Assembly: GCA_041665445.1 (NCBI GenBank)
Contig: JBAYIV010000003.1
Span: forward strand, 1 to 58,331
Source of the DNA: Minisyncoccota bacterium
GTDB taxonomy: Bacteria > Patescibacteriota > Minisyncoccia > UBA6257 > JAGOQP01
DNA: 58,331 nucleotides
Direction of reading: 5' to 3'
The position numbers were made by a program, and so were the translations under genes. Shown here in pieces: positions 17,982 to 52,093 of this stretch (its first letter is position 1; the number at the start of each line of letters is the position of its first letter). The notes beneath the pieces were generated by a model. It did not search any database, was not told where the DNA came from, and saw nothing but the letters and a program-made list of their open reading frames with translations.

Positions 17982-18061
17982 ATACAATTACCCTTTTAAA
18001 ACAAAGAAGCCTTTCGACGGATACTAGTATAGCACATGAGAAAGGGGTACACTATGTCCAT

Positions 18062-18619
18062 ATGAAACCGTTTACTATCGTCGGTATTTCAGGGAGTCTT
18101 CGGTTGGGATCTTACAACAGCAGTTTATTGCGTGTGGCACAGCACTATGCGTCAGCACAGGGGATGTCAGTTGATATACTAGACATCGGATCACTTCCGC
18201 TTTTTAACCAAGACCATGAGCGTGATGCGCATGAAGCGGTCATGCAGTTAAAACAAAAAATCAAAGGGGCTGACGGCATACTTTTCGTGACGCCGGAGTA
18301 TAACTATTCAATTTCCGGCTCGCTTAAAAATGCGATCGAGTGGGGGACTCGTCCGTACGGCGACAATAGTTTTGATGGCAAGCCGGCGGGAATTATGAGT
18401 GTATCAACGGGGATTCTGGGCGGTGCGCGTGCGCAGTATCATCTGCGGCAGATACTGGTCAGTCCCAATGTACATGTGATGAATCATCCCGAGATTATGG
18501 TGGGGCAGGCAAAAGAAAAATTCAACGAGGTGGGGGAATTGATTGATGTTCAAACGCAAGAGCGGGTAAAGGAATTTTTAGAGGCGTTTGCACAGTGGAT
18601 GGGGAAATTTGCACAATAG
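18062..18619 (+). CDS. NADPH-dependent FMN reductase
   Basis: GISGSLRLGSYN, TPEYNYSISGSLKNAIEW, GGARAQYHLRQ. Confidence 0.92.
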   Translation: MKPFTIVGISGSLRLGSYNSSLLRVAQHYASAQGMSVDILDIGSLPLFNQDHERDAHEAVMQLKQKIKGADGILFVTPEYNYSISGSLKNAIEWGTRPYGDNSFDGKPAGIMSVSTGILGGARAQYHLRQILVSPNVHVMNHPEIMVGQAKEKFNEVGELIDVQTQERVKEFLEAFAQWMGKFAQ

Positions 18620-18638
18620 TAGCGTTATTGTTTGGCGT

Positions 18639-18673
18639 ATATAAAAACACTCCGATGTATCGGAGTGTTTTTA
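18639..18673. terminator. Bidirectional terminator
   Basis: ATAAAAACACTCCGAT-GT-ATCGGAGTGTTTTTAT. Confidence 0.75.
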
Positions 18674-18678
18674 TTCCG

Positions 18679-18749
18679 TGGACCCACGGGGAGTCGGACC
18701 CCGACCTGTTCCATGCCATGGAACCGTTCTACCGCTATACTATGGGCCC
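18679..18749 (-). tRNA. tRNA-Ala(GGC)
   Basis: Cloverleaf with acceptor GGGCCCA/TGGGTCC including the G3:U70 Ala identity pair, anticodon arm GTTCC-ATGGCAT-GGAAC, T loop TCCGACT. Confidence 0.9.
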
Positions 18750-18871
18750 ATCAGTTGCCAAAAAGAGCAAAATCATAATACAATGGATTGAGACCATTCG
18801 CAACTACGCCTCCGTAGTTTCCGCCAAGGGCGGATCCATCCTTCGGGTGGCAACGGATGATAATACGCAAC

Positions 18872-18943
18872 GCCCCCGTAGTTCAACGGATAGAATCGGC
18901 CCGTCCTAAGGGTTTGATGTGGGTTCAATTCCTACCGGGGGCA
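18872..18943 (+). tRNA. tRNA-Arg(CCT)
   Basis: GCCCCCG/CGGGGGC acceptor, anticodon loop GTCCTAA, T arm GTGGG-TTCAATT-CCTAC. Confidence 0.9.
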
Positions 18944-19104
18944 CAGAGCAAGCAAATTGTTTTGCTTGCGTGGGGAATTGAACGCCGCCTGCCTACGGCA
19001 GGCAGGGAGCATGTGTGAGTAACAATGAGCACCGCGAGGCGGCGGTTAGACCAGTGCGAGCGACGGCGAGCAATGAGTCGGAGCCAATTCCTACCGAGGA
19101 CACA
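18944..19104 (+). mobile_element. tRNA-associated miniature structured element, copy 1
   Basis: About 84% identical to 21911-22053. Ends in an 18/20 duplicate of the tRNA-Arg 3' end (CAATTCCTACCGAGGACACA). Mobility is inferred, not shown. Confidence 0.65.
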
Positions 19105-19112
19105 CAAAAAAT

Positions 19113-19445
19113 ATGAGTAGAGAAATACCACATAACGGAACAGAAAATTATCATGTGATGCGCAAAATGACGGCTGATGAAGCGGCTACTCTTTTAGATT
19201 TCTTTCATCTCCCCGACGAGCATCCCGAGTACATTATCATTCCGTATCCCAATAAAACGGTTTACATTCATAAATGGACGCGTATTCCGCATATAAAAAA
19301 TAATTCTCAAGATCCCCATCTCATCAATGTCATCAGTGACACGGATGAGGTTGGATTGGTTGTCGCAAAAGAGCTGGAAAAGGCGCGAGAGGCGTTTGCT
19401 GCGATTAAGGCCAAAGATATTGATAAAATCGAGCCAATCAAGTAG
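19113..19445 (+). CDS. Hypothetical protein
   Basis: 110-aa ORF with ATG, between the element and tRNA-Ser. No recognised family. Confidence 0.6.
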   Translation: MSREIPHNGTENYHVMRKMTADEAATLLDFFHLPDEHPEYIIIPYPNKTVYIHKWTRIPHIKNNSQDPHLINVISDTDEVGLVVAKELEKAREAFAAIKAKDIDKIEPIK

Positions 19446-19458
19446 GGTGGTAAAAACT

Positions 19459-19545
19459 GGAGGGTTCGCATAGTGGTCTAGTGCGCCGCACTCGAAATGC
19501 GGTTGGGGAGAGATCCCCTCACAGGTTCAAATCCTGTACCCTCCG
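19459..19545 (+). tRNA. tRNA-Ser(CGA)
   Basis: Anticodon arm CCGCA-CTCGAAA-TGCGG, long variable arm, discriminator G. Confidence 0.93.
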
Positions 19546-19607
19546 CCCAGTGGTCAAACCATGTATTCTTCATAAAATTATTTGTGAGGTATCGACAGGG
19601 CTTTTAT

Positions 19608-20255
19608 ATGAAAAAATCTTTGCAGGAAAGGTTAATCAAGATAGCGCAAGAAAGGCAGGTTGCAACGGACGTATCTCATGATTTTGGGCATGTGCAGCGC
19701 GTTTTTAATCTTGCGGTGCAGATAGGAAAGAGTGTTAAGGCCGATTTGGACGTAGTCATTCCCGCAGCCCTTTTTCACGACACGGTTGTTTATAGAAAAA
19801 ATGACCCAAGGAGAAAAAATGAGACGGATGAAAGCGCGGAAGTTGCCGGCAATATTTTAACAAAAGTAAGCGGATATCCGAAAAAGAAAATAGAATTAGT
19901 GAAAGTTTGTATTCGTCAATGTTCGTTCACCAAAGGAATAAAGCCGGACGCATTGGAATCAAAAGTTTTGCAAGATGCCGATTTACTTGAGTCGACGGGT
20001 GCCATTTCCATCATGAGGACGTTTTCTTCGTGCGGGCAGATGGGTCGGATTTTCTATAATCCCCAAAGTCCGTTTTTCAAAAAGAATGAGATTGGTGTTC
20101 AATCCGGCGTCGGGTTATTCTATTCTCGCCTTTTGGTGGCGGAGAAAAGAATGCACACAAAATTTGCCAAGCGGATCGCCAAAAGAAGGACTGCCTTTTT
20201 AAAGAAGTTTTTAAATGAGCTGAAGACAGAACTTCGGGAGTCAAAAATAATTTAA
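19608..20255 (+). CDS. HD domain metal-dependent phosphohydrolase
   Basis: SHDFGHVQRV, AALFHD, LQDADLLESTGAI. Confidence 0.9.
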   Translation: MKKSLQERLIKIAQERQVATDVSHDFGHVQRVFNLAVQIGKSVKADLDVVIPAALFHDTVVYRKNDPRRKNETDESAEVAGNILTKVSGYPKKKIELVKVCIRQCSFTKGIKPDALESKVLQDADLLESTGAISIMRTFSSCGQMGRIFYNPQSPFFKKNEIGVQSGVGLFYSRLLVAEKRMHTKFAKRIAKRRTAFLKKFLNELKTELRESKII

Positions 20256-20315
20256 TCCATCACTGTTAGCATTCACGCATAGACAAACAAGGGTAGGGCT
20301 GTATCATCAAATAGT

Positions 20316-20609
20316 ATGTCTCAAGTCTTCCGGCGAACTAAAGAAAATTTTATCTGCGAGCATTGCGGCGCGCAAGTTGCTGGCAACGGCTACACCAACC
20401 ACTGCCCCAAATGTCTGTGGAGCAAGCATGCGGACACCAATCCGGGAGACCGTGCCGCGCAGTGCGGTGGCATGATGGAGCCGATTCGGGTTGAGACAAA
20501 GGGGAGAGAATACCGTATCGTTCACCGATGCACAACGTGTGGCGTGGAACGAATTGTTGATGTGGCTGATGGGGATGCAATAGAGATTTTAATCGCGGGA
20601 AAACAATAA
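20316..20609 (+). CDS. RNHCP domain protein
   Basis: FICEHCG...YTNHCPKCLWSKH...GDRAAQCGGMM...HRCTTCG. Confidence 0.88.
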   Translation: MSQVFRRTKENFICEHCGAQVAGNGYTNHCPKCLWSKHADTNPGDRAAQCGGMMEPIRVETKGREYRIVHRCTTCGVERIVDVADGDAIEILIAGKQ

Positions 20610-20612
20610 GCT

Positions 20613-21404: not shown

Positions 21405-21412
21405 ATATTTTT

Positions 21413-21486
21413 TGGTCGGGCTGCTGGGAATCGGACCCAGACCGCATGCTCCCAAAGCATGTATACTACCACTATACTACAGCCCG
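21413..21486 (-). tRNA. tRNA-Pro(TGG)
   Basis: Anticodon arm CATGC-TTTGGGA-GCATG, T loop TCCGATT, encoded CCA. Confidence 0.92.
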
Positions 21487-21681
21487 TCACTTGCCATACT
21501 ATCGTGATGGCATACAAAAAGCAACAAAGTTGCTTTTTGTATGCCATCATGAGTACAATCAATGAGATGCATAGTGTCCCCGTGGTTTCCACCAGAGGCG
21601 GATGGCACTCGGGGTGGCAGCGGATGGCGTGAATGGCGGCGAGGTGCTTTGTGCAATCAAATCATTGCGTGCTCAATAATA

Positions 21682-21753: not shown

Positions 21754-21807
21754 CTGGTTTATATTGCACGGAGCGGTTTTTTCTGTTACTCTTTTACGGA
21801 ATCAAAA

Positions 21808-25790: not shown

Positions 25791-25816
25791 CGATGGTTTG
25801 GCGATACACTGTGTTT

Positions 25817-26446
25817 ATGCGATACGAAAAAAATTTCGTGGTTTTTGAAGGTATCGATGGATCGGGGAAGGGCATGCAAATTGATTTCTTAAAGGAATGG
25901 TATCGGAGCCGCAAAAAAACTGATGTGGTTTTTACACGCGAGCATACGCGCGATGGCCAATGGTCGGAGCAGATTGAGGCATTGATTCATGGTGATGGCG
26001 CCAATGCGGTATCGGCTGAAAAAATGCAGTTGCTCTATATTCTTGACCGCAAAGATCATCTGGAGCGTGTCGTCATCCCCGCGCTCAAAAAGGGAGAGAG
26101 GGTGATTTGTGGCCGCTATTTTCTCTCGACGCTCGCTTATGGAGGCGTCGATCGGCAATTGCACTGGAAGACGCTTTTGGAAAATCACAAGGAAATTTTG
26201 GGCGATCTCTTTGTCCTTCCAGCCAGAACAATTTTTATCGACGTCGATCCGGATGTTGCGTTGCAACACATTACCGATCGTGGCGAGGGGCATACGTATT
26301 TTGAGACGCTTGAGCGTCAGCGTATTATTCGCGATGCGTATTTGTCGATTGGGCCGCATTTTGAAGGATTTGCGGTTGTGGATGGGCGCGGAACACCCGA
26401 AGAGGTTTTTGAGCGCGTCAAAACGGCGCTGGCTGATTATTTGTAA
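25817..26446 (+). CDS. tmk: Thymidylate kinase
   Basis: FEGIDGSGK P-loop, TREH, ICGRY. Confidence 0.9.
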   Translation: MRYEKNFVVFEGIDGSGKGMQIDFLKEWYRSRKKTDVVFTREHTRDGQWSEQIEALIHGDGANAVSAEKMQLLYILDRKDHLERVVIPALKKGERVICGRYFLSTLAYGGVDRQLHWKTLLENHKEILGDLFVLPARTIFIDVDPDVALQHITDRGEGHTYFETLERQRIIRDAYLSIGPHFEGFAVVDGRGTPEEVFERVKTALADYL

Positions 26447-26478
26447 AGCGCTCTGGCTGTGGGGTATAATGTTCACCG

Positions 26479-27921
26479 ATGTATATTCCAACCATAGGAC
26501 TTGAAATCCACGCGGAGTTGGCAACAAGGCGCAAAATGTTTTGCGATTGCTTGAACGACGAAACAGAGCTTTCGCCAAACGTCAATGTATGTCCCATATG
26601 CCTCGGGCATCCCGGAACATTGCCGGTTGCTAATGAACGGGCGATTGCGTATGTCGTCAAAACCGGATCGGCGCTCAATTGCCGCATCGGTCGGTTCTCA
26701 AAGTTTGATCGAAAGAATTATTTTTATCCGGATCTTCCCAAGGCGTACCAAATCAGCCAATACGATCAGCCGTTATGCGCGGAGGGATTTTTGACTCTGC
26801 CACAGAGCAAAAAAAAGATTCGCATCACACGTATTCATCTAGAAGAAGATACGGCTCGCTTGGCGCACGCGGCCGATGGGAAGAGCAGTTTAGTTGATTT
26901 TAATCGCGCCGGCGTTCCATTGATGGAATTGGTTACCGAACCTGATTTTCACGCCGCGCAAGACGTTGTTGAATTTGCACGCGAGTTCCAATTAATTTTG
27001 CGGTACTTAGGAGTGTCTGATGGTGACATGGAGAAAGGGCATATGCGCATTGAGGCAAATATTTCTATCGCACGCGCCGATGCGAACACATTGGGGACAA
27101 AAGTTGAAGTAAAAAATCTCAACTCATTTCGAGCGGTTGAGGGAGCAATTGCGTATGAAATCGCTCGCCAAGAAGCGGTCTACGTTGATGGCGGCGTCAT
27201 TAAACAGGAAACCCGCGGATGGAATGAGGCCACGCAGGAAACCTATTCTCAACGGTCAAAAGAAGAGGCTCACGATTATCGCTATTTTCCCGAACCGGAT
27301 CTGCCGCCGCTAACGTTTGATGATGCGTATCTTGATACAATTCGTGCGCAAATCACGGAATTACCTCAGGCGCGGCGCGAACGATTTTCACAGGAATACA
27401 ATCTTTCTGAAACGCAGGCAGATCTTTTGGTGGGTGATATGACGATGGCTGATTTTTTTGAAAAAACAGTTTCTGAATTGCGTGCGTTGGACGAATATGG
27501 AGATGCGGGGATGGTGTATAATTATCTCGTCTCCGATATTCAGGGGGTCTTGAGCGCTACGGGAATGGCGCTCTCTGAAACAAAACTGCAACCGGAGCAT
27601 TTGGCGCATATTGTAGTATTTTTAGGACAAAATAAGATCTCCAGTCGCGTTGCCAAGGATGTGCTCAAAAAGAGCATGGATACGGGACGTGATCCAGAGG
27701 GGGTCTTAATCGAAGAGAATCTTTTTCAAGTCTCCGACGTTGGAGCACTTGACGCCGTGGTGCAGGAGATAATTGACAAAAATGAAAAAGTGTGCTTTGA
27801 TTATAAAAACGGTAAGGAAGCGGCGTTGCAGTTTTTGGTCGGTCAAGTCATGGCCAAAACGCGCGGTGCGGCTAATCCGGAAATTGTCCGGACGGTGCTA
27901 AAGGGAAAATTGTTAATATAA
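26479..27921 (+). CDS. gatB: Asp/Glu-tRNA amidotransferase subunit B
   Basis: IGLEIHAEL, RKNYFYPDLPK, RIHLEED, DYRYFPEPDLP. Confidence 0.96.
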   Translation: MYIPTIGLEIHAELATRRKMFCDCLNDETELSPNVNVCPICLGHPGTLPVANERAIAYVVKTGSALNCRIGRFSKFDRKNYFYPDLPKAYQISQYDQPLCAEGFLTLPQSKKKIRITRIHLEEDTARLAHAADGKSSLVDFNRAGVPLMELVTEPDFHAAQDVVEFAREFQLILRYLGVSDGDMEKGHMRIEANISIARADANTLGTKVEVKNLNSFRAVEGAIAYEIARQEAVYVDGGVIKQETRGWNEATQETYSQRSKEEAHDYRYFPEPDLPPLTFDDAYLDTIRAQITELPQARRERFSQEYNLSETQADLLVGDMTMADFFEKTVSELRALDEYGDAGMVYNYLVSDIQGVLSATGMALSETKLQPEHLAHIVVFLGQNKISSRVAKDVLKKSMDTGRDPEGVLIEENLFQVSDVGALDAVVQEIIDKNEKVCFDYKNGKEAALQFLVGQVMAKTRGAANPEIVRTVLKGKLLI

Positions 27922-28970: not shown

Positions 28971-29005
28971 AATAAAAAACTCCGCCGTTGGCGGAGTTTT
29001 TTATT
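28971..29005. terminator. Bidirectional terminator
   Basis: AATAAAAAACTCCGCC-GTT-GGCGGAGTTTTTTATT. Confidence 0.8.
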
Positions 29006-29942
29006 CACATAATTCATTCATGAGCGACGCATTCAATGTCGGAAGAATTTTTTCCACATCAGCTATCCAGATAATATTTTTATTTCTTTTAAACCAAGTC
29101 ATTTGCCGTTTCGCATAGCGCCGCGTGTCGGCAGAAAGTTCGGCAATCATGTTTTCTTTAGATATTGTTTTTTGGAGATAGCGCGCGATCCAGCGATATT
29201 CAAGGCCGAATTGTTCAAGGCGTTTCCAGGAGAGGCCGTTTTTGTGCAGGCGCGTAACCTCGGCGATCATGCCGTGCTTTATGCGGGTATGTATGCGTTT
29301 CTCTATTCGTTCGGCGAGGATGTTTTGCGGGGGATTCATGCCGACAATAATTGTTTTCGGGTAGTACGGTTCTCGTGTAGCGACGGGGATCGGCTTGCCG
29401 GTTGTGGAAATGATTTCAAGCGCACGAATAAGCCGGCGTTTGTTGTGGGGGTCTATTGTTGCCGCTCGACGGGGGTCTTTTTTCTGCAGTTGCGCAAAGA
29501 GGTTCTCCGTGGAAATCTTGTCGAGTTTTTTGCGAAGAGCAGTGTCTGGTTTTGCAGAGGGAAACTGCACATCGTAGAGCAACGAATCAACAAAAAAACC
29601 GGTGCCGCCGCAGATGACGGGGATTTTATTTTGAGCATATATATTCTTTATCGCGGTGCGCCCTAGTTTTTGGTAACGGGCAACGGTAAATGTGCGATGC
29701 GGCCAGGCAACGTCAAGTAGATGATGGGGGATGCCCCGCATCTCTTTTTTGGTGACTTTCCCTGAAGTAAGGTTGAATTCTTTGTATACTTGTCGCGAAT
29801 CAGCGGATATTATTTCGGCACCAGCGATCCCCAATTGGCGGGCATGTTTTTTGATGGAAAGCGCAATCGCAATTGCCGCATCCGATTTGCCCGAAGCGGT
29901 AGGACCCACGATGGCAATGATGGGAAGCATTGTTTTCTGCAT
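29001..29942 (-). CDS. miaA: tRNA dimethylallyltransferase
   Basis: GPTASGKS, ISADSRQVY, HHLLD, TRRYAKRQMTWF. Confidence 0.95.
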   Translation of the reverse strand: MQKTMLPIIAIVGPTASGKSDAAIAIALSIKKHARQLGIAGAEIISADSRQVYKEFNLTSGKVTKKEMRGIPHHLLDVAWPHRTFTVARYQKLGRTAIKNIYAQNKIPVICGGTGFFVDSLLYDVQFPSAKPDTALRKKLDKISTENLFAQLQKKDPRRAATIDPHNKRRLIRALEIISTTGKPIPVATREPYYPKTIIVGMNPPQNILAERIEKRIHTRIKHGMIAEVTRLHKNGLSWKRLEQFGLEYRWIARYLQKTISKENMIAELSADTRRYAKRQMTWFKRNKNIIWIADVEKILPTLNASLMNELCE

Positions 29943-29977
29943 GGGCGTATGATACACCAAATGTCTAGGAGGATGCC

Positions 29978-35147: not shown

Positions 35148-35312
35148 ACAAGTAACTCAACCATAGCATGAATAACGTACCGCCGCTACGCCGCATGCGG
35201 ACTGCGCGGAGAAGGTAGTATACCCATATCTATTTTTTAATGCAAAAGGCAGAAAATTTTGGGTTAGAAACGTTTTATGTCCCGTCGATTTATTGTATAC
35301 TGCCGTTCATCT

Positions 35313-35966
35313 ATGAACGCAACTCGTTCTTACCGGTATGTCGTCGGAATCGATGAAGTCGGACGCGGTCCGTTGGCGGGGGACGCGTATGTCGGTGCCG
35401 TGGTTATTTCCGCGGCTCTTAATAAAAGTTTGGCACGCGCGTATCGGGCGCACGCACATACGAGTGGACACTTGTTTCCATGCAAACTTGCTGATTCAAA
35501 AAAGCTTTCGTTGCGCCAGCGAGAAGCATGGTTTGCGTGGATGCGTTTGCGGGGCATTGAGCCTATTATCGCGCGCGTATCACCGGGGGTTATCGATACT
35601 CTTAATATAGCTCGTGCCTGCGATCGTGCCGCACAAAGAGCGTATGTGCGCGTTCGTAGAGTTGTGCGGGGCGTTGGCGTGGTGCGTGTGGTGGCCGATG
35701 GGGGATTGTCGTTAGGCAATGCATTGCGCGCGCGCGATGATTTTGAGCATTTCGCAAAGGCGGATGAACGAGTACCGGCGGTATCGTTGGCGTCAATTGC
35801 GGCAAAGGTTTTGCGCGATCGGGCGATGATACGCATGGCACGCCGTTACCCTCATTATGGATTTGACGCACACAAAGGATATGGGACCAAAAAACACATT
35901 CGGGCGATAAAAAAATACGGCCCAAGCCCCCTGCATCGCCGTTCCTTTATCAAAAAGTTTGTTTAA
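35313..35966 (+). CDS. rnhB: Ribonuclease HII
   Basis: GIDEVGRGPLAG, DSKKL, AASIAAKV-like, HKGYGT, HRRSF. Confidence 0.93.
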   Translation: MNATRSYRYVVGIDEVGRGPLAGDAYVGAVVISAALNKSLARAYRAHAHTSGHLFPCKLADSKKLSLRQREAWFAWMRLRGIEPIIARVSPGVIDTLNIARACDRAAQRAYVRVRRVVRGVGVVRVVADGGLSLGNALRARDDFEHFAKADERVPAVSLASIAAKVLRDRAMIRMARRYPHYGFDAHKGYGTKKHIRAIKKYGPSPLHRRSFIKKFV

Positions 35967-40739: not shown

Positions 40740-40776
40740 CAGTCCCGTCTGCGGTTGGCAGACGGGACTGTTTTTT
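40740..40776 (+). terminator. Terminator after khpA
   Basis: CAGTCCCGTCTGC-GGTTG-GCAGACGGGACTG-TTTTTT. Confidence 0.8.
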
Positions 40777-40790
40777 GTATAGTATATCTC

Positions 40791-41492
40791 ATGGGATCCA
40801 TCCGTCGCCGCGGGATCGTTCGATCAGCGCCTAAGACATTTCATGTTTTTTCTGCCATTCCAGAGGTTATTGCGCCGTATTTTATGGCGTCAATTTTTGG
40901 GAAGGCGCAGGCGCGCAAAATAATTTCGGTACGGGTATATGATCTGCGCGCAGGAGCCGTTGATAAACACAAAAAGATAGACGATAGTCCGTATGGAGGA
41001 GGACCGGGGATGGTTCTTAAGGTGGATACTATTTATCGAGGCGTTGCGGCGCTGAAAAGAAAAATTGTTCGCACCATGCACAGAAAAACACGTATCGTGC
41101 TCTTAAGTACGCGCGGAAAGTTATTCACCAGCGTCGAGGCGCGACGGCTGGTTCGGTACGATCATGTGGTGTTTATTTGTGGGCGGTATGAGGGGGTTGA
41201 TGAGCGCGTGGCGCGCCATATTGCCGATGAGGAACTATCGGTGGGCCCCTTTATCCTCTCGGGAGGCGAGATCCCAGCCATGCTGGCCATTGATGCCATT
41301 GCGCGATTTGTCCCGGGTGTTTTGGGCAAAGAGGAGTCGTTGGAGGAAGTGAAGGGAAGCTACCCCGTTTACACACGTCCTGAGGTTTTTTATCCCGATT
41401 CCAAAAAAGCTAAAAAAGCATGGCGCGTGCCGCAAGTTTTATTGTCGGGTGATCACAAAAAAATAGACGAATGGCGAAGTGCGCGAGGTTGA
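40791..41492 (+). CDS. trmD: tRNA (guanine-N1)-methyltransferase
   Basis: DDSPYGGGPGMV, CGRYEGVDER, SVGPFILSGGE, LLSGDH. Confidence 0.95.
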   Translation: MGSIRRRGIVRSAPKTFHVFSAIPEVIAPYFMASIFGKAQARKIISVRVYDLRAGAVDKHKKIDDSPYGGGPGMVLKVDTIYRGVAALKRKIVRTMHRKTRIVLLSTRGKLFTSVEARRLVRYDHVVFICGRYEGVDERVARHIADEELSVGPFILSGGEIPAMLAIDAIARFVPGVLGKEESLEEVKGSYPVYTRPEVFYPDSKKAKKAWRVPQVLLSGDHKKIDEWRSARG

Positions 41493-42861: not shown

Positions 42862-42915
42862 CCAAATCGTGCGTTGAGCGTAGGGGCGGCTGATGTGGTA
42901 TACTTCCCACTATCC

Positions 42916-43296
42916 ATGTTCTATTTTATTCTCGAGATGATTTTTTTCTTAGCGCTCGCAATGGTAGCGCTTTTGATGTTGCGTCGACTGCCGTTGGTTG
43001 ATGGATTTGAAGAAGAAAAACCATCGCGCGGCACGGGAGCGTTCTGGGGAGGGGTTCGCTGGCATTGGGTTGACGCCATGGACAAGAAGGTGTTGTTCTA
43101 TTCAACCAAAACATTACGACGTCTGAAGATATGGACGATGAAATTTGATGCCTTGATTGCCCGTTCGCTTGAGCGAGTGAGTCCCCAAATAAATAGCGGC
43201 GAAGGGGATGCACCGCATGTCATTAAGACGTTGCAAGAAGATCGTCAACGTGCGCAGGAGGCCGACGATGGGAAGCATCGTCGATCCGATGAGTAA
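42916..43296 (+). CDS. Hypothetical membrane-anchored protein
   Basis: N-terminal TM helix; TATACT 11 nt upstream of the ATG. Confidence 0.65.
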   Translation: MFYFILEMIFFLALAMVALLMLRRLPLVDGFEEEKPSRGTGAFWGGVRWHWVDAMDKKVLFYSTKTLRRLKIWTMKFDALIARSLERVSPQINSGEGDAPHVIKTLQEDRQRAQEADDGKHRRSDE

Positions 43297-45813: not shown

Positions 45814-46110
45814 ATGGCTAAGAAGTTATATGTAGGGAACCTCCCGTACACAACAGCCAACGAAGACCTTGCCAGCACTTTTTCCGAATATGGAGAAGTG
45901 ACCAGCGCAACGGTTATGATTGATCGGATGACCGGTCGTTCACGCGGATTCGGATTTGTCGAAATGGCAAATGACGATGAAGCCGATAAAGCTGTTGAGA
46001 CGTTAAATGGAAAAGATTTTGGCGGACGTTCCTTGGTGGTCAACGAAGCTCGTCCCATGGGGGAAAGGCCTCCTCGTCGTGAGGGTGGATTCCATGGCGG
46101 ACGCAGATAA
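45814..46110 (+). CDS. RRM (RNP-1) RNA-binding protein
   Basis: KLYVGNL (RNP2) and RGFGFVEM (RNP1). Confidence 0.93.
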   Translation: MAKKLYVGNLPYTTANEDLASTFSEYGEVTSATVMIDRMTGRSRGFGFVEMANDDEADKAVETLNGKDFGGRSLVVNEARPMGERPPRREGGFHGGRR

Positions 46111-46191
46111 GTTAATCAATTTACTAAACGCTCCCGATGGTATCGGGAGCGTTTTTGTTTGGCGTCTGCGAGCGTGATATACTTAAAAAAT

Positions 46192-46929
46192 ATGGCACAC
46201 ACGCGGACATCGGGAAAACTTTTTGAACCAGGCGCGCCCTTTACGCTCAGCCGTTCCAAGCTTGAACTTTTTATTAATTGTCCGCGCTGTTTTTATTTTG
46301 ATCGGCGTTTAGGAGTCGCCCAGGTTCCTGGATTTCCCTTTACACTTAATAATGCGGTTGATGCGCTTCTTAAAAAAGAATTTGATATCCATCGCGCTGC
46401 CGGCAGTGTTCACCCGTTGTTAAGGGCATACGGCGTGACGGCGCGTCCTTTTATGCACGAGAAGATTGATGCGTGGCGTGACACCAGGCGCGGAATATCA
46501 TACTTTCATGAGCCGACGCAACTGACTATTTTTGGCGCTATCGACGATGTGTGGATAAACGATGCGGGCGAACTGATTGTTGTTGATTATAAGGCAACCA
46601 GTACAACGGCGCCGTTGACGCTTGATGCAGACTATCGGCAGGCATATAAGCGGCAGATAGAAATTTATCAATGGTTATTTCGCAGAAATGGATTTGCGGT
46701 GTCACCGACCGGCTATTTTGTTTACGCAAACGGGAAAAAAGATCGCGCCGCCTTTGATGGCGTGTTGGAATTCGATGTTTTATTACTTCCCTACGCGGGT
46801 AACGATGACTGGGTTGAGCGCGTTGTGGTGCGGGCGCACCAATGTCTTGCCGAAGAATATCCGCCCGTGGCCGCAAAGGCGTGTCCGTGGTGCGCCTATC
46901 GAGCTCAGGCATCGTTATACGAATCTTAA
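46192..46929 (+). CDS. PD-(D/E)XK nuclease family protein with terminal Cys pairs
   Basis: GAIDD...VVDYK, QIEIY; CPRC near the N-terminus and CPWC near the C-terminus. Confidence 0.85.
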   Translation: MAHTRTSGKLFEPGAPFTLSRSKLELFINCPRCFYFDRRLGVAQVPGFPFTLNNAVDALLKKEFDIHRAAGSVHPLLRAYGVTARPFMHEKIDAWRDTRRGISYFHEPTQLTIFGAIDDVWINDAGELIVVDYKATSTTAPLTLDADYRQAYKRQIEIYQWLFRRNGFAVSPTGYFVYANGKKDRAAFDGVLEFDVLLLPYAGNDDWVERVVVRAHQCLAEEYPPVAAKACPWCAYRAQASLYES

Positions 46930-46932
46930 ACC

Positions 46933-47664
46933 ATGAAAATTCATCGTTTTTTGATAACCGACGACCTGTCGCCCCAAAGCGATTTGATTCTGCGGAATGC
47001 GGGGATGATTCGTCAAATAAAAACAGTGCTGCGACTACGAGAGGGTGGGGTGATAGCTCTTTTTAACGATCGTGGCCAGGAGGCGCACGCGCGCATCGTG
47101 CGTTTGTCGGGTGATCAAGTGATGTGTCGTGTCGACGAGGTGAGTCGGCGATCGGCCGACGCGCCCATTGCGGTGACGGTATATTGCGCCATTTTAAAAC
47201 GCGAGAATTTTGAGTGGGTGGCGCAAAAAATAACCGAAATCGGGGCTCATGCGCTCGTCCCGTGCGTTACGGAACGTACCATAAAAAAGAATATTATACC
47301 GGCTCGTGTTGCGACGATTATGCGCGAAGCCGCCGAACAATCGGGACGCGTCACCATGCCTTTATTGCTGGAAACGATGCGTTTTGTTGATGCGTTTGAT
47401 GGTGCGATGACCGCGCATGAGCCGTGCGTATTATTTGATCCGCGCGGATTGACGCTTGATAACTCGCCATGTCTTGCCGCGAGCCATCGGGCGGTAAACA
47501 TCTTTATTGGTCCAGAGGGTGGATGGTCAGATGAGGAATATGAGTACGCTCGCGCAAGAGGAGCGTGCATTATTTCGCTTGGGGGGACTGTTTTACGTGC
47601 CGAAACGGCTGCGGTAGTGGGGACTTATGCGATCGTATGGCGCGCACGAGAGCAAAATGCATGA
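46933..47664 (+). CDS. rsmE: 16S rRNA (uracil-1498-N3)-methyltransferase
   Basis: VLRL, EAAEQSGR, IGPEGG, LRAETAA. Confidence 0.93.
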   Translation: MKIHRFLITDDLSPQSDLILRNAGMIRQIKTVLRLREGGVIALFNDRGQEAHARIVRLSGDQVMCRVDEVSRRSADAPIAVTVYCAILKRENFEWVAQKITEIGAHALVPCVTERTIKKNIIPARVATIMREAAEQSGRVTMPLLLETMRFVDAFDGAMTAHEPCVLFDPRGLTLDNSPCLAASHRAVNIFIGPEGGWSDEEYEYARARGACIISLGGTVLRAETAAVVGTYAIVWRAREQNA

Positions 47665-47695
47665 CAAAATGGATAATTGGTGTATACTGCGGTGC

Positions 47696-48193
47696 ATGAT
47701 GCAAATAAAAAATAAGAAGTTACTTTTTATCACGACGGGGATTGTCCTTGTTCTTCTGTGCGTTGGCATTGCTTGGTGGTGGCAACAATCAAGCGGTGGC
47801 GCGCCAAAAAGCGGAGACAACCAACCGCCTGTTTCCGGACAATCGGTTTATGATGCGCAACTGGGATTTAGCGTGGTTATCCCCGATTCATGGCAAGGGA
47901 AATATCAAATGAACTCGGGATCGCAAGCGGTCGCATTTAATTTTGCCAATGGAACGTCGTCGTATCCTCTTTTCACGGTGTACGCTTATCCGGAAAAAGA
48001 TTGGGCAGTCGTACAAAAAAGCACAAGCTTGATTGTTTCGATTGCCTCGCACAATGGAACGGTTTTTGCATATAACGTGACGCCCAGCGGCTTATTTAAG
48101 GGTGCGGCGGGACAACAGCAACAATTTGAGACCATGCTTAAAGACGTGCCCGCCATCGTACAGAGCATGCAATTTACCGGGAGTGGAAAATAG
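47696..48193 (+). CDS. Secreted/membrane-anchored hypothetical protein
   Basis: Basic N-terminus plus TM helix, then a small beta-rich domain. Confidence 0.7.
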   Translation: MMQIKNKKLLFITTGIVLVLLCVGIAWWWQQSSGGAPKSGDNQPPVSGQSVYDAQLGFSVVIPDSWQGKYQMNSGSQAVAFNFANGTSSYPLFTVYAYPEKDWAVVQKSTSLIVSIASHNGTVFAYNVTPSGLFKGAAGQQQQFETMLKDVPAIVQSMQFTGSGK

Positions 48194-48248
48194 AGTTCGC
48201 CGAAGTTTTTGCACTAGTGAATAAAAACCCCGCATGGTGCGGTGGTTT

Positions 48249-48743
48249 TTATTTGGCGGTTTTCCCGTGCATTATGGTGACCACGTCGCCGATGTGAATG
48301 GCAAGTCGGTCAATGGTGCCGGCAGGAACTTCCAGCACCATGGTGATTGGTTTTTGCGGCATCACTATCTCGGCATTTTCCCCGCGAGTCGGCCAGGGAA
48401 CGTTTTGGTCGATGTCCATGACGTGGTTATCGATGAGCCAAACAAAATCCAGAGGAAACGTCATCCCGCGCATAACAAATGGGTATTTTTGTGCGCTGCC
48501 AAAAACAAAAAGCATGCCGGCATCTTGTGCTAGGGGAGCGTGCCCGGAGAGTCCCTGGTATTGCTTTATCGTTGAGCTGGCCACCTCGGCAAGAATGGTT
48601 CCGTTGGGGAATTCCACAATGGCTTGCTGATGGTCGTCCCATCCTGCGCGCGAGGTCCTAAAAACGAGAAATATCCATGTGCCTAGGCCGATGAGTGCGG
48701 CGACAAAAATAATAAGGGGGAATAAAACGTATAATGAACGCAT
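48249..48743 (-). CDS. DUF192 domain protein
   Basis: AEVA...QGLSG...GMLFVF...FVMRGMTFPLDFVW...VLEVPAG. Confidence 0.88.
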   Translation of the reverse strand: MRSLYVLFPLIIFVAALIGLGTWIFLVFRTSRAGWDDHQQAIVEFPNGTILAEVASSTIKQYQGLSGHAPLAQDAGMLFVFGSAQKYPFVMRGMTFPLDFVWLIDNHVMDIDQNVPWPTRGENAEIVMPQKPITMVLEVPAGTIDRLAIHIGDVVTIMHGKTAK

Positions 48744-48862
48744 GGGTGCATTGTACTCGCGGGTTATATTCCCGCAAGGGGTTGTGGGCGGTAGCGGATA
48801 TCCCGCGGGATCTCTTTCGCGGCGATTAATTTTTGCGGTAGAAAAAATAATCTAAAATGTAT

Positions 48863-49309: not shown

Positions 49310-49333
49310 GCGGATTTATGCAATACTAGGTCA

Positions 49334-49582
49334 ATGATAAAAGAGTTTTTTATTCGGCGGATGCTTGAGACTCAGTTAAAACAAGTTCCACAGGATCAGC
49401 GTGAAAAAATCGTTCAAATGTTTTCAAAAAATCCTGAATTTTTTGAAACGCTCGCTCATGAACTTCAGGAAGAACTTAAGCGTGGGAAGAATCAGGCAGA
49501 CATAATGCAGGAGCTTATGTTGAGACATCGCGATGAATTACAGCGCATAGCAAAGGAAAACGAGGCAAAAGTCGATAGCTAA
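49334..49582 (+). CDS. Small helical hypothetical protein
   Basis: 82-aa ORF with a -10-like box just upstream. Confidence 0.65.
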   Translation: MIKEFFIRRMLETQLKQVPQDQREKIVQMFSKNPEFFETLAHELQEELKRGKNQADIMQELMLRHRDELQRIAKENEAKVDS

Positions 49583-49607
49583 CCACTCTCCGCCCTTTAC
49601 CGCATCC

Positions 49608-50465
49608 ATGCCGACCCAGCATCGCATTGGCGCTCATGTATCAACCGAGGGGGGCGTCTTGACGGCTCTGGACAATGCTCAGCGTATCGGGGCAAACACT
49701 ATCCAGATTTTTGGGGCCAATCCCGTCCAGTGGCGTGCGCAGGTTCCCGATCAAGCCATCGCGCAACAATTTAAGGAAGGAGCGCACGCGCGCGGCATTG
49801 AACCCGTCTTTTTGCACGCACCGTACCTCATTAATCTTGCGAGCGAGAAGGGTAATCTGGCGGGCATGTCAAAAACGCTTCTCGCAAAACATCTGGAGAT
49901 TGCCAATGCACTGGGGGCGTTTGGGGTTATTTTTCATATCGGATCGCGCGGAGAGCGTGCGGAGAAAGACGCTGAGGCGATGGTGGTGGCGGCCTTGGAT
50001 GAAATCGCTCGTGATGTTCCTCGGGGCATGTTGATTATTGAGAACAGTGCCGGTGCCGGTAATTTGGTTGGTGATACGCTCGAAGAAATCGGGTCTATTT
50101 TGCTTGGGCTTAATAATCCGCGCGTCGGTTTTTGTCTTGACACGGCGCATGCCTTTGCCGCGGGGATATTGAATGATTTTTCCGTCGGAGGCGTCGATGC
50201 TTTTGCCACCAAGATTGATCGTTATGTCGGGCTTGAAAAATTATGGGCTATCCATCTCAACGACAGTAAGGTTCCTGCCGGTTCAAGCAAAGATCGGCAT
50301 GAAAATATTGGAGAGGGCTTAATCGGGGCTACGGCATTGAAACAATTTGTGATGCATCCGGCGTTTGTTAATGTGCCGATGATTCTTGAGGTCCCTGGAT
50401 TTGATGGCGCCGGGCCGGATAAAAAAAATATTGATATTGTGAGATCTTTTTTCGAGGTTATATAA
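49608..50465 (+). CDS. nfo: Endonuclease IV (AP endonuclease)
   Basis: IGAHVS, HAPYLINL, FHIG, IIENSAG, CLDTAHAF, HLNDSK, DRHENIG. Confidence 0.94.
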   Translation: MPTQHRIGAHVSTEGGVLTALDNAQRIGANTIQIFGANPVQWRAQVPDQAIAQQFKEGAHARGIEPVFLHAPYLINLASEKGNLAGMSKTLLAKHLEIANALGAFGVIFHIGSRGERAEKDAEAMVVAALDEIARDVPRGMLIIENSAGAGNLVGDTLEEIGSILLGLNNPRVGFCLDTAHAFAAGILNDFSVGGVDAFATKIDRYVGLEKLWAIHLNDSKVPAGSSKDRHENIGEGLIGATALKQFVMHPAFVNVPMILEVPGFDGAGPDKKNIDIVRSFFEVI

Positions 50466-50484
50466 GTAATCAGTGATAGCGCCT

Positions 50485-50766
50485 ATGTCAAACGAATCAA
50501 AGAAGGAATTACTCAAAGAAGTGAAGGAAAAGGCCAAGGAAGACGCACGCAAGGCATCGAGAACATTTCTTGAGAAAACGGGCATTTATGTTATGGCTGG
50601 TCTTGGATTGGTGGTCGGTTTAGCATGGAACGATGCCATTCAGGCACTCGTCAAAGAGCTGGTTCCTATCGGAACGGGAACCGTGGTATTGAAATTTATC
50701 TACGCAGTCATTATCACCGGCGTGCTGGTCTTGATCTCAATGCGGATGGAAAAGAATTCGTCGTAA
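50485..50766 (+). CDS. Small two-helix membrane protein (DUF5654-like)
   Basis: AGLGLVVGLAWNDAIQAL...KFIYAVIIT. Confidence 0.7.
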   Translation: MSNESKKELLKEVKEKAKEDARKASRTFLEKTGIYVMAGLGLVVGLAWNDAIQALVKELVPIGTGTVVLKFIYAVIITGVLVLISMRMEKNSS

Positions 50767-50888
50767 GGATGGGTCATGGCTCTGCGGCTGCTTTTTGAAA
50801 TTCTTAGTTATTATTTTTCCACAAAACAAAACGCCGATACTATCGGCGTTTTGTTTTGTGCTCGTCGTGTTTGATTTTTGTTTCTGCC

Positions 50889-51188
50889 TTATTCGTGCTT
50901 CTTGGCGTTTTCAATAATGTCGCCATCTTTAAAGAGAATCTGCTCAAGTTTCTGACGCCAGGCTGGCATTTTGCGTGCAAGCCATTCCAACTCGGTGGCA
51001 AAATGTTCCATTTCCTCCTTCTGTGCGTGTTCAATGATTTTTTTTACTTCGGGATCTTTTGAGACGGCAATGCGTTGCTGGTATCCCTGGATTGCTTCGG
51101 CCTCCTCAACCATTGAGGCGATCATGCGGGCAATGTCTTTTTCTCCCTCGGACAGCGCATTGTCTGACTCCATGTATACTTGTGCCAT
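50889..51188 (-). CDS. Encapsulated-ferritin (EncFtn)-like protein
   Basis: RMIASMVEEAEAIQGYQQR...HAQKEEMEH...LEWL...ILF matches the EncFtn family pattern EExEAxxWYxQR / EEKEH. Confidence 0.8.
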   Translation of the reverse strand: MAQVYMESDNALSEGEKDIARMIASMVEEAEAIQGYQQRIAVSKDPEVKKIIEHAQKEEMEHFATELEWLARKMPAWRQKLEQILFKDGDIIENAKKHE

Positions 51189-51286
51189 AAATGTTGCGGT
51201 TACTGATGATGCTGATAGTATAGCATGGAATATCAGGTGAGGCGTAGTGCCTTGCTTTTTAATGTCTGCGCGGTATACTGGCGCTC

Positions 51287-51367
51287 ATGTATAAGAAGAA
51301 AAAAGTAGCCGACAAGAAACATCGAAAAAATAAGGGGAAAAAAATAGCCTCTTTGCGCAATCGTTAA
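51287..51367 (+). CDS. Putative 26-aa highly basic peptide (not in the ORF track)
   Basis: MYKKKKVADKKHRKNKGKKIASLRNR, with its own TTGCTT-16-TATACT promoter and a downstream hairpin/T-tract. Confidence 0.5.
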   Translation: MYKKKKVADKKHRKNKGKKIASLRNR

Positions 51368-51424
51368 GCCCGCTCTCCCGCTTTGCCGGGAGAGATTTTT
51401 TATAAAAAAGTATATACTGCGCCT

Positions 51425-52093
51425 ATGTTGTATATCGTTGGAACGCCTATTGGCAACTTAAAAGACATTACCGAGCGGGCACTTGAAATTTTACGTACGG
51501 TGCCGGTGATTATTATGGAAAGCCCGCAAGACTCAATGCGTCTGGTCCGTGCCTATGCCTTGCCACAGAAGGAAATTATTAAATACAACGAACGCAATAG
51601 AAAGAGAATGGAAGCTGAGGTGCTGACGGTACTGCAGGAAAAGGACGCCGCGTACATCACGTCGGCGGGCATGCCTGGGATTAGTGACCCAGGCGAAGAT
51701 TTGGTGCGTTTGGCGCGAGCGCATAGTGTTCCGGTCAATGTCGTCCCGGGGCCGTCGGCGTTGACGGCCGCACTCGCTTTGTCGGGGTTACCCATCCGCG
51801 AATTTTCTTTCATTAGTTTTCCTCCCAAAAAGGAGGGTCAGTTGAAAAAACTTTTCGTCGAATATGCGGAACGGAAAACGACGTTGGTATTTTTTGAGTC
51901 GCCGTTTCGGATTGTTAAAACCATCGCCGCACTTGAAAAAACGGTTCCCGATGTGCGCGTTTTTGTTGCTAAGGAACTGACCAAAATGTTTGAAAATTCA
52001 TTTGAGGGAATGCCTGCAGATGTTTTGGCGCAACTGGCTACCAGTCCCAAAAATACCAAGGGCGAATTTGTCGTGGTGGTTGCGTTCGGATGA
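51425..52093 (+). CDS. rsmI: 16S rRNA (cytidine-1402-2'-O)-methyltransferase
   Basis: LYIVGTPIGNLKDIT, AGMPGISDPG, FESPFR, KELTKMFE, GEFVVV. Confidence 0.94.
   Translation: MLYIVGTPIGNLKDITERALEILRTVPVIIMESPQDSMRLVRAYALPQKEIIKYNERNRKRMEAEVLTVLQEKDAAYITSAGMPGISDPGEDLVRLARAHSVPVNVVPGPSALTAALALSGLPIREFSFISFPPKKEGQLKKLFVEYAERKTTLVFFESPFRIVKTIAALEKTVPDVRVFVAKELTKMFENSFEGMPADVLAQLATSPKNTKGEFVVVVAFG

What the first reader, a model, noticed from the sequence alone, without database searches (positions are those of the whole stretch)
18048..51425. Widespread -10 boxes 6-8 nt before ATG: probable leaderless mRNAs
Seen, as hexamer and gap to ATG: FMN reductase TACACT 8; tmk TACACT 6; gatB TATAAT 8; miaA TATCAT 6; trmD TATAGT 7; nuclease 46192 TATACT 8; 47696 TATACT 7; DUF192 TACAAT 6; 49334 AATACT 6; 51287 TATACT 7; rsmI TATACT 6. 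Known: transcription starts about 6-8 nt after the -10 hexamer, and leaderless mRNAs are read without SD pairing. Inference: this anti-SD-less organism relies heavily on leaderless initiation, with many single-gene promoters.
Basis: partly seen in the sequence, partly recalled or inferred. Interest (0 to 1): 0.65.

Follow-up and report, generated by a model that had tools for sequence, protein, structure and literature searches.

The report
Promoters abutting start codons (leaderless genes)
In this tiny-genome Paceibacteria (CPR) bacterium, whose ribosome has lost its Shine-Dalgarno docking sequence, roughly one gene in six to ten has a real promoter box only 6-9 bases before its ATG, so its mRNA probably has no leader. 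This is a known way of starting genes, seen here in a lineage where I found no published report of it, and it is not the main route for most of this organism's genes.

Summary
All 11 hexamer-gap-ATG sites exist exactly as listed, and the gene identities hold. Two sites are weak: AATACT at 49322, and a 26-codon ORF at 51287.

The pattern is far above chance genome-wide. TAYANT lies 6-9 nt before 55 of 661 predicted starts, against 10.6 ± 3.2 in shuffles. It occurs only before ATG. Internal ATGs show no such peak.

The hexamers are real sigma-70-type promoters. Columns that were not used to select the sites show a -35 TTG at a 17-bp spacer and an extended -10 TGTG. TATACT is the organism's -10 consensus, and about 70% of its copies are non-coding.

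The "heavy reliance" claim is overstated. Only 8-18% of genes, and about a third of consensus promoters lying within 100 nt of a gene, have this geometry. That resembles Actinobacteria and Deinococcus (GeneMarkS-2 group C). The remaining genes have no SD. They show A-rich, G-poor upstream sequence and a pyrimidine at -1 in 91% of cases, including inside operons.

Across 301 Paceibacteria genomes the signature is widespread. It is about twice as strong in genomes lacking the anti-SD (p ≈ 1e-9 by genome, 0.001 by family).

The parts
2428..3971 (+). 16S rRNA gene whose 3' tail (...GTGAAACAACTACACAG) lacks the CCUCC anti-Shine-Dalgarno sequence
   Evidence: Rfam SSU_rRNA_bacteria at 1413 bits over the full model. 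The sequence was read.
18048..18064 (+). -10 box TACACT, 8-nt gap, then the ATG of the FMN reductase gene (18062-18619). It is divergent from the DoxX gene, with an 80-nt spacer.
   Evidence: (FMN_red profile position 2 at residue 5).
25805..25819 (+). -10 box TACACT, 6-nt gap, then the ATG of tmk (25817-26446). A hairpin plus T-run lies just upstream.
   Evidence: (Thymidylate_kin profile position 1 at residue 10).
26465..26481 (+). -10 box TATAAT preceded by TGTGGGG, 8-nt gap, then the ATG of gatB (26479-27921)
   Evidence: GatB_N profile position 2 at residue 5. My own start caller wrongly chose TTG 26620.
29940..29954 (-). -10 box TATCAT, 6-nt gap, then the ATG of miaA (29001-29942, minus strand)
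35296..35315 (+). -10 box TATACT, 11-nt gap, then the ATG of the RNase HII gene (35313-35966). This gives a near-leaderless mRNA with a leader of 5 nt or less.
   Evidence: RNase_HII profile position 1 at residue 11.
40755..40793 (+). Terminator-like hairpin and T-run, -35 TTGGCA, 17-bp spacer, -10 TATAGT, 7-nt gap, then the ATG of trmD (40791-41492)
   Evidence: promoter scan row 40755-40783, 10 of 12 matches.
42899..42918 (+). -10 box TATACT preceded by TGTGG, 11-nt gap, then the ATG of a 126-aa ORF (42916-43296).
   Evidence: no Pfam match.
46126..46194 (+). Compact module: a 13-bp terminator hairpin (46126-46154) whose T-tract TTGTTT serves as the -35, a 17-bp spacer, -10 TATACT (46178), an 8-nt gap, then the ATG of the PD-(D/E)XK nuclease gene (46192-46929). 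That gene is followed 3 nt later by an RNA methyltransferase gene.
47661..47698 (+). -35 ATGACA, 16-bp spacer, -10 TATACT preceded by TGGTG, 7-nt gap, then the ATG of a 165-aa ORF (47696-48193)
   Evidence: promoter scan row 47661-47688; no Pfam match.
48741..48755 (-). -10 box TACAAT, 6-nt gap, then the ATG of the DUF192 gene (48249-48743, minus strand). It is divergent from the AhpC/TSA gene.
49322..49336 (+). Weak -10-like AATACT, 6-nt gap, then the ATG of an 82-aa ORF (49334-49582). This is the least convincing site because the first T of the hexamer is missing.
51235..51394 (+). Self-contained mini-unit: hairpin (51235-51257), -10 TATACT (51274), 7-nt gap, a 26-codon Lys-rich ORF (51287-51367), then a terminator hairpin (51373-51394)
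51413..51427 (+). -10 box TATACT, 6-nt gap, then the ATG of rsmI (51425-52093), directly after the terminator at 51373-51394
   Evidence: (TP_methylase profile position 1 at residue 1).

Best explanation
These are ordinary sigma-70/sigma-A-type promoters. Their parts are a -35 TTGnnn, a 17-bp spacer, an extended -10 TGTGn, and a -10 with consensus TATACT. Each sits so close to an ATG that RNA polymerase should start transcription at, or 1-5 nt before, the A of the start codon. The normal start lies about 7 nt past the -10 box.

The resulting mRNAs have no usable 5' leader. They would be translated by the leaderless route, in which a ribosome with fMet-tRNA binds a 5'-terminal AUG and no SD pairing is needed. 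That suits an organism whose 16S rRNA has no anti-SD.

The arrangement covers about 8-18% of genes and about a third of recognisable consensus promoters. These are typically the first or only gene of a short transcription unit.

The remaining genes are leadered or operon-internal. They are started by a different SD-independent signal: A-rich, G-poor upstream sequence and a pyrimidine at -1.

Shown: the sites, their statistical excess, the promoter anatomy, ATG specificity, absence of SD and anti-SD, and occurrence across the class. Inferred: the transcription start position and the mode of ribosome loading.
For: 1. All 11 sites are present, and Pfam profile starts fit the chosen ATGs.

2. Positional enrichment:
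- Before all genomic ATGs, TATANT occurs at gaps 6-9 in 35, 41, 31 and 32 cases, against about 23 at other gaps. There is no peak before GTG, TTG, CTG, ATC or AAG.
- With refined starts, TAYANT at gaps 6-12 gives 17, 12, 17, 9, 6, 6 and 10, against about 3 per position.
- Shuffles give 10.6 ± 3.2 against 55 observed.
- Internal in-frame ATGs show no gap 6-9 peak.
- The independent tool count of TATACT-N6-8-ATG is 40, against 15 for the reversed pattern.

3. Promoter anatomy in columns not used for selection, over 67 aligned sites: T/T/G at -23..-21 in 42, 38 and 36 sites, and T-G-T-G at -5..-2 in 39, 38, 31 and 34 sites. The same flanks appear around all 205 non-coding TATACT copies.

4. TATACT is the top enriched 6-mer in -25..-1: 60 genes, against 21 at -60..-35 and 1 in coding sequence. 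Of its 293 copies, 207 are non-coding.

5. A TATACT also lies 6 nt before the 5' end of the tmRNA gene.

6. All 55 strict sites use ATG.

7. There is no SD motif upstream of 180 unambiguous starts, no anti-SD, and no k-mer complementary to the 16S tail is enriched.

8. Terminator hairpins lie directly upstream of several window promoters.

9. The signature recurs across 301 Paceibacteria genomes and in relative G031 at ortholog-anchored starts: 26 of 88 at gap 6-9, against about 10 expected.
Against:
- The gaps range from 6 to 12, so some transcripts may carry 1-5 nt leaders.
- My gene and start calls are home-made and imperfect. Coding coverage is 82%, and gatB was mis-started.
- Part of the loose TANNNT excess at gaps 6 and 9 comes from in-frame TAA/TAG stops upstream of ORF starts.
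- About 20 of the 65 strict hits are expected from background.
- Leaderless status is not conserved gene by gene with a same-order relative: 11/34 against 20/74, p = 0.65.
- IF3, which disfavours leaderless initiation in E. coli, is present.
- The generic promoter scan of the window is not above its shuffles: 29 against 25.6.
Confidence: 0.7

Rival explanations
1. The promoters are real, but the start codons are mis-assigned or the transcripts are leadered. Either the true start lies further downstream, so the mRNA has a leader of tens of nucleotides, or a second upstream promoter supplies most of the transcript. The -10-to-ATG spacing would then have little functional meaning.
For: Start choice is uncertain for many genes. 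My caller disagreed with Pfam on gatB. Many consensus TATACT promoters do lie 13-60 nt from a start (window examples at genes 11261, 17498, 51188 and 57628). Leaderless status is not conserved in orthologs of G031.
Against: The enrichment is tied to ATG at gap 6-9. It is absent at other gaps, before other codons and before internal ATGs. Pfam profile starts support the proposed ATGs for rsmI, gatB, FMN reductase and tmk. The estimate that does not depend on start choice still gives an excess of 45 (strict) to 82 (loose) genes at gap 6-9.
Confidence: 0.15
2. The UAUACU-like hexamer is a translation signal in the mRNA rather than a promoter. It could be an A/U-rich enhancer bound by the short S1 protein, or a replacement docking site for the altered 16S tail.
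For: The organism lacks SD and anti-SD and must use some other signal. A 3-domain S1-like protein is encoded. The hexamer sits at the distance where an SD would sit.
Against: The sites carry a -35 TTG at a 17-bp spacer and an extended -10 TGTG, which are RNA polymerase contacts. The same motif occurs at many other distances and before the tmRNA gene. It is almost absent before operon-internal genes: 0 strict hits in 117 genes lying 10 nt or less behind their neighbour. No k-mer complementary to the 16S tail is enriched.
Confidence: 0.05
3. It is a compositional or ORF-definition artefact. AT-rich intergenic DNA, together with in-frame TAA/TAG stops upstream of the first ATG, would create TANNNT matches near starts.
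For: TANNNT counts at gaps 0, 3, 6 and 9 are inflated when the longest-ORF start is used. One listed hexamer (AATACT) is not a TANNNT, and one ATG opens only a 26-codon ORF.
Against: TAYANT cannot be a stop codon, yet it peaks at gaps 6, 7 and 8 alike. Shuffles give z of about 14. Both reversed-pattern and shifted-spacing controls are lower: 66 against 30 and 36. Unselected flanking columns carry promoter motifs.
Confidence: 0.03

Closest known systems
Leaderless ('TA-led') genes of Actinobacteria and Deinococcus-Thermus: GeneMarkS-2 group C genomes (Lomsadze et al. 2018, PMC6028130), Zheng et al. 2011 (PMC3160421), Cortes et al. 2013 (PMC3898074), Zhong et al. 2025 (PMC12340547)
   Same: A -10 (Pribnow, TANNNT) box lies 6-8 nt before the start codon of first genes in operons. 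Those genes have no SD. The share is of the same order: about a third of consensus promoters here, against 25-50% of operons in group C and more than 20% of genes in those phyla. Leaderless status changes between related genomes, as Zheng et al. also reported.
   Different: In group C genomes the other genes use SD ribosome-binding sites and the 16S keeps its anti-SD. Here there is no anti-SD and no SD at all, so leaderless starts coexist with a non-SD leadered mode. The lineage (Paceibacteria/CPR) is not among those reported. The -10 consensus is TATACT with a strong TGTG extension. No experimental transcription starts exist.
Anti-SD-lacking subgroup of Parcubacteria (Tsurumaki, Saito, Tomita, Kanai 2022, RNA 28:1041, PMC9297842)
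   Same: This genome belongs to that kind of lineage. Its 16S 3' end has no CCUCC. In my sample, 106 of 177 Paceibacteria genomes with a 16S 3' end lack it, comparable to their 48% detection rate.
   Different: That paper describes the rRNA loss and does not address how translation starts. 'Leaderless' and 'promoter' do not occur in its text.
SD-independent initiation of Bacteroidota (GeneMarkS-2 group B, non-SD A-rich upstream signal)
   Same: The non-leaderless majority of genes here have A-rich, G-poor upstream sequence and no SD.
   Different: Bacteroidota keep the anti-SD sequence. Here it is gone. There is also an unusually strong pyrimidine at -1 (91%), and a separate leaderless class is present.

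Membership tests
Bacterial leaderless genes / GeneMarkS-2 group C-type genome | A -10 (Pribnow, TANNNT) motif sharply localised about 6-8 nt upstream of start codons of first genes in operons | tested here: met
   The peak is at gaps 6-9: TAYANT gives 17, 12, 17 and 9 against about 3. Shuffle z is about 14. The signal is concentrated in divergent genes and in genes more than 10 nt from their neighbour, and absent in genes 10 nt or less behind their neighbour.
Bacterial leaderless genes / GeneMarkS-2 group C-type genome | The motif is a true promoter element, not an RBS | tested here: met
   Unselected -35 TTG at a 17-bp spacer and extended -10 TGTG. The same motif precedes the tmRNA gene by 6 nt.
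Bacterial leaderless genes / GeneMarkS-2 group C-type genome | No SD sequence between promoter and start; the start codon is AUG (or GUG) at the 5' end | tested here: met
   No room for an SD in 6-9 nt. All 55 strict sites use ATG. There is no enrichment before GTG or TTG.
Bacterial leaderless genes / GeneMarkS-2 group C-type genome | Mapped transcription start coincides with the start codon | not testable with these tools
Bacterial leaderless genes / GeneMarkS-2 group C-type genome | A substantial share of operons is leaderless (25-50% in group C, PMC6028130) | tested here: inconclusive
   41-43 of about 125 TATACT promoters within 100 nt of a gene are at gap 6-12, and 8-18% of genes. The number of transcription units is not known because my gene calls are incomplete.
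Bacterial leaderless genes / GeneMarkS-2 group C-type genome | Remaining genes use SD-type ribosome-binding sites | tested here: not met
   GGAG, GAGG and AGGA are virtually absent upstream of 180 unambiguous starts. The 16S lacks the anti-SD.
Anti-SD-less Parcubacteria (Tsurumaki 2022) | 16S rRNA 3' end without the CCUCC(U) motif | tested here: met
   no match in G000; 16S 3' anchor present.
Anti-SD-less Parcubacteria (Tsurumaki 2022) | Placement in Parcubacteria/Paceibacteria | tested here: met
   The closest gatB relatives are Candidatus Paceibacterota MAGs at 64-66% identity. The genome search places G000 in a class whose members share the 16S features.

The most novel reading that the evidence does not exclude
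Loss of the anti-SD in Paceibacteria went together with a lineage-wide rewiring of start-site selection into two SD-free routes. The first is leaderless mRNAs made from promoters that abut the ATG. In 301 genomes these are about twice as frequent in anti-SD-less lineages as in lineages that keep the anti-SD. The second, in this genome, is a 'YAUG' context, with a pyrimidine at -1 in 91% of starts, for leadered and operon-internal genes. If the association is causal, and leaderless use either pre-adapted these lineages to lose the anti-SD or expanded after the loss, these organisms would be a natural experiment on how a bacterium can dispense with SD pairing.
Probability: 0.35. Interest if true: 0.7.

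Novelty: new member of a known kind. Interest (0 to 1): 0.45.

Why it matters
It bears on an open question left by the 2022 report that half of Parcubacteria lack the anti-SD: how do their ribosomes find start codons? This genome gives a partial answer. A sizeable minority of genes is set up for leaderless initiation, as in Actinobacteria and Deinococcus. Most genes, however, need another SD-free signal.

There are practical consequences. Gene-start prediction in CPR genomes should use a dual model, with a promoter box at about -10 plus a non-SD context, rather than an SD model. TATACT preceded by TGTG can be used to map transcription units in this lineage. The class-wide link between anti-SD loss and promoter-abutted ATGs is a testable evolutionary hypothesis.

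Tried and rejected

2. Ortholog-level conservation: I fetched 368 kb of the same-order relative G031 and anchored starts by tblastn. Leaderless-type status of G000 genes does not predict that of their orthologs (11/34 against 20/74, p = 0.65). G031 does have its own enrichment. The gatB upstream regions of relatives L001-L046 were only anecdotally similar.

3. A fused terminator-promoter module as a general rule: only 11 of 73 leaderless-type genes have a terminator-like hairpin within 110 nt, although three window sites do.

4. An alternative docking motif complementary to the new 16S tail: none is enriched.

5. A class-wide SD index (AGGAG-N5-10-ATG against the reversed pattern) was uninformative. 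Nearly all genomes, including G000 (143 against 71), sit at a baseline ratio near 2, probably because of coding-strand composition. I did not analyse it further.

6. The generic sigma-70 scan of the window is not above its shuffles (29 against 25.6). The organism-specific consensus was needed.

7. The pyrimidine at -1 as a mark of transcription start (the Y-1/R+1 rule): rejected as the main cause, because it is equally strong in operon-internal genes (53/57).

8. The loose TANNNT counts at in-frame gaps are partly an artefact of TAA/TAG stops, so the strict TAYANT counts are the safer figure.

9. Literature: no paper in the held library links leaderless mRNAs with CPR or Patescibacteria.

Full report
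**Material.** The window is contig C3 of a 724-kb, 31-contig, 48% GC genome that is estimated 99.7% complete. The closest gatB relatives are Candidatus Paceibacterota (Parcubacteria, CPR) MAGs at 64-66% identity. The window holds the 16S rRNA gene (2428-3971). After helix 45 its 3' end reads GAAACAACTACACAG where GGATCACCTCCTTA would normally stand, so there is no anti-SD. Loss of the anti-SD in a Parcubacteria subgroup is published (Tsurumaki et al. 2022, PMC9297842). That paper does not discuss leaderless mRNAs or promoters.

**Observation.** All eleven hexamer-gap-ATG combinations are present at the stated positions, two of them on the minus strand. Pfam confirms the gene names. The profile starts fit the chosen ATGs for rsmI, gatB, FMN reductase and tmk. 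Two items are weak. AATACT at 49322 is not a TANNNT box, and the ATG at 51287 opens only a 26-codon Lys-rich ORF. I found two more near-leaderless cases with an 11-nt gap: RNase HII at 35313 and an ORF at 42916. In the finding's range, about 9 of 37 called genes have TANNNT at gap 6-8. About 2-3 are expected from the background of ~14 per 661 genes per position.

**Is it more than chance?** I built a crude gene caller: a periodic Markov model giving 661 genes and 82% coverage. I also used several measures that do not depend on it.
- Before every ATG in the genome, TATANT is found at gaps 6-9 in 35, 41, 31 and 32 cases, against about 23 at other gaps. There is no peak before GTG, TTG, CTG, ATC or AAG.
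- Internal in-frame ATGs (n = 3009) show no gap 6-9 peak.
- With refined starts, TAYANT at gaps 6-12 gives 17, 12, 17, 9, 6, 6 and 10, against about 3 per position.
- Shuffling the 40 nt upstream gives 10.6 ± 3.2 genes, against 55 observed.
- The independent pattern tool counts TATACT-N6-8-ATG 40 times, against 15 for the reversed pattern.

One artefact needs noting. TANNNT at in-frame gaps (0, 3, 6, 9) is inflated by TAA/TAG stops upstream of ORF starts. TAYANT cannot be a stop, so it is the safer measure.

**What the hexamers are.** I aligned 67 sites chosen only for TAYANT-gap-ATG. The unselected columns show T/T/G at -23..-21 relative to the hexamer, which is a -35 TTGnnn with a 17-bp spacer. 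They also show T-G-T-G at -5..-2, an extended -10. The fifth hexamer position is C in 45 of 67 sites. The same flanks surround all 205 non-coding TATACT copies, whatever their distance from a gene. TATACT has 293 copies, of which 207 lie in the 26% of sequence then called non-coding. It is the most enriched 6-mer in -25..-1: 60 genes, against 21 at -60..-35 and 1 in coding sequence. A TATACT also lies 6 nt before the tmRNA gene. These are therefore real sigma-70-type promoters with consensus TTG-N17-TGTGg-TATACT. From general knowledge of such promoters, transcription normally starts about 7 nt after the -10 box. With a gap of 6-8 nt, the A of the ATG is the expected +1. Every strict site uses ATG, as expected for a 5'-terminal start codon.

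**How much of the genome?** For each gene I counted a hit if any in-frame ATG in the 5' zone had the box. TAYANT at gap 6-9 is found in 65 genes and at gap 10-13 in 29, against about 20 per control window. TANNNT is found in 167 and 122, against about 85. That gives 54-119 genes, or 8-18%.

By context, TANNNT at gap 6-11 (control gap 20-25 in brackets) is found in:
- 38 of 125 divergent genes (15)
- 41 of 99 genes lying 41-100 nt behind a same-strand neighbour (19)
- 30 of 103 genes at 11-40 nt (9)
- 11 of 117 genes at 10 nt or less (5), with no strict hit

Seen from the promoter side, 175 non-coding TATACT copies point at a gene. Of these, 41 lie at gap 6-11, about 125 lie within 100 nt, and there is no preferred spacing beyond 12 nt. 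About a third of consensus promoters are therefore of the leaderless type. This is the range reported for GeneMarkS-2 group C bacteria: Pribnow box at 6-8 nt, 25-50% of operons (PMC6028130). [quoted passage not shown] "Widespread" is fair; "relies heavily" is not.

**The other genes.** Upstream of 180 unambiguous ATG starts there is no SD; GGAG, GAGG and AGGA are nearly absent. Positions -15..-2 are A-rich and G-poor. Position -1 is T in 62%, C in 29%, A in 7% and G in 2%. The -1 pyrimidine is just as strong in operon-internal genes (53/57) as elsewhere (100/109), against 38% for all ATGs. It is therefore a translation-related context, not a mark of transcription start. In the same-order relative G031 it is weaker, at 63%. 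No k-mer complementary to the 16S tail is enriched. The genome encodes IF3 and a 370-aa protein with three S1 domains.

**Window anatomy.** Strong terminator hairpins at 46126-46154, 51235-51257 and 51373-51394 lie directly upstream of the promoters of 46192, 51287 and 51425. At 46155 the terminator's T-tract TTGTTT is at the right distance to act as the -35. Several units are one or two genes long, which supports the "single-gene promoters" remark locally. Genome-wide, only 11 of 73 leaderless-type genes have such a hairpin.

**Relatives.** In 301 Paceibacteria genomes I counted TATAMT-N6-8-ATG, the same hexamer with N16-18, the 16S anchor GTCGTAACAAGG, and the anchor followed by CCTCC. The 16S 3' end is present in 177 genomes: 71 keep the anti-SD and 106 lack it.
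- The N6-8 to N16-18 ratio has median 1.81 in anti-SD-less genomes and 1.26 in the others (Mann-Whitney p = 7e-9). By family, 44 against 22 families give 1.82 against 1.24 (p = 0.001).
- The absolute excess has median 36 against 14 (p = 4e-10). This holds within three strata of background count (p = 0.003, 0.003 and 0.0006) and by family (p = 0.0015).
- G000 is typical of the anti-SD-less group, with 66 against 36 (ratio 1.83) and an excess of 30, the 39th percentile of that group.
- There are exceptions in both directions. Families f17, f31 and f65 keep the anti-SD but score high. Families f44, f74 and f89 lack it but score near 1.

The genomes are not phylogenetically independent, so this is an association, not proof of a causal link.

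At gene level the architecture is not conserved. Against 368 kb of G031, leaderless-type genes of G000 have leaderless-type orthologs no more often than other genes do (11/34 against 20/74, p = 0.65). G031 has its own enrichment (26 of 88 at gap 6-9, against about 10 expected). This turnover agrees with what Zheng et al. reported for other bacteria.

**Literature.** No paper in the held library connects leaderless mRNAs with CPR or Patescibacteria. Earlier unchecked notes of this scan report the same kind of promoter in other Patescibacteria genomes. I treat these as leads, not as support.

**Limits.** My gene and start calls are home-made; gatB was mis-started. The number of transcription units is uncertain.

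**Verdict.** This is a new member of a known kind: promoters of leaderless genes, in a lineage where I found none reported. It differs in that the rest of the genome has no SD system at all.

Noticed in passing
genome-wide; e.g. window 20612, 22348, 25277, 36885, 42420: Position -1 before the start codon is a pyrimidine in 91% of 180 unambiguous ATG starts (T 62%, C 29%). It is equally strong in operon-internal genes (53/57), against 38% for all ATGs. The same-order relative G031 shows only 63%. This is a strong 'YAUG' start context with no explanation yet. Pairing of U(-1) with A37 of the initiator tRNA is one idea, recalled from memory and not tested.
   Followed up: partly
window 51235-51394: A 26-codon Lys-rich ORF (MYKKKKVADKKHRKNKGKKIASLRNR) has its own TATACT box 7 nt upstream. 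It is flanked by hairpins on both sides, the downstream one a terminator with a T-run. It could be a tiny basic protein or a leader peptide; its conservation was not tested.
   Followed up: no
window 46126-46183: The T-tract (TTGTTT) of the terminator hairpin of the preceding RRM-protein gene sits exactly 17 bp upstream of the TATACT box of the nuclease gene. One sequence could thus serve as both terminator tail and -35 element. Genome-wide such hairpins precede only 11 of 73 leaderless-type genes.
   Followed up: partly
genome contig C1, tmRNA gene near 99073 (minus strand): A TATACT box lies 6 nt before the predicted 5' end of the tmRNA gene. The primary transcript would then begin at or next to the mature 5' end, leaving no 5' precursor leader.
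   Followed up: no
301 Paceibacteria genomes (genome search handles G001-G300): 71 of 177 genomes with a 16S 3' end keep CCTCC and 106 lack it. The excess of TATAMT-N6-8-ATG over N16-18 is about twice as large in the anti-SD-less genomes (median 36 against 14). There are exceptions in both directions (f17, f31, f65 against f44, f74, f89).
   Followed up: yes
genome contig C1:69837-70568 (minus strand): The only candidate ribosomal protein S1 is a 370-aa ORF with three S1 domains, against six in E. coli. IF3 is present at C1:95310-95561.
   Followed up: partly
window 48230-48242: A short GC hairpin (CCGCATGGTGCGG) with T-runs on both strands lies between the convergent genes 47696-48193 (+) and 48249-48743 (-). 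It looks like a bidirectional terminator.
   Followed up: no
window 45814-46110: A 98-aa RRM_1 (RNA recognition motif) protein gene stands as its own unit. It has TATTTT and TATATT 7 and 9 nt before its ATG and a strong terminator after it.
   Followed up: no
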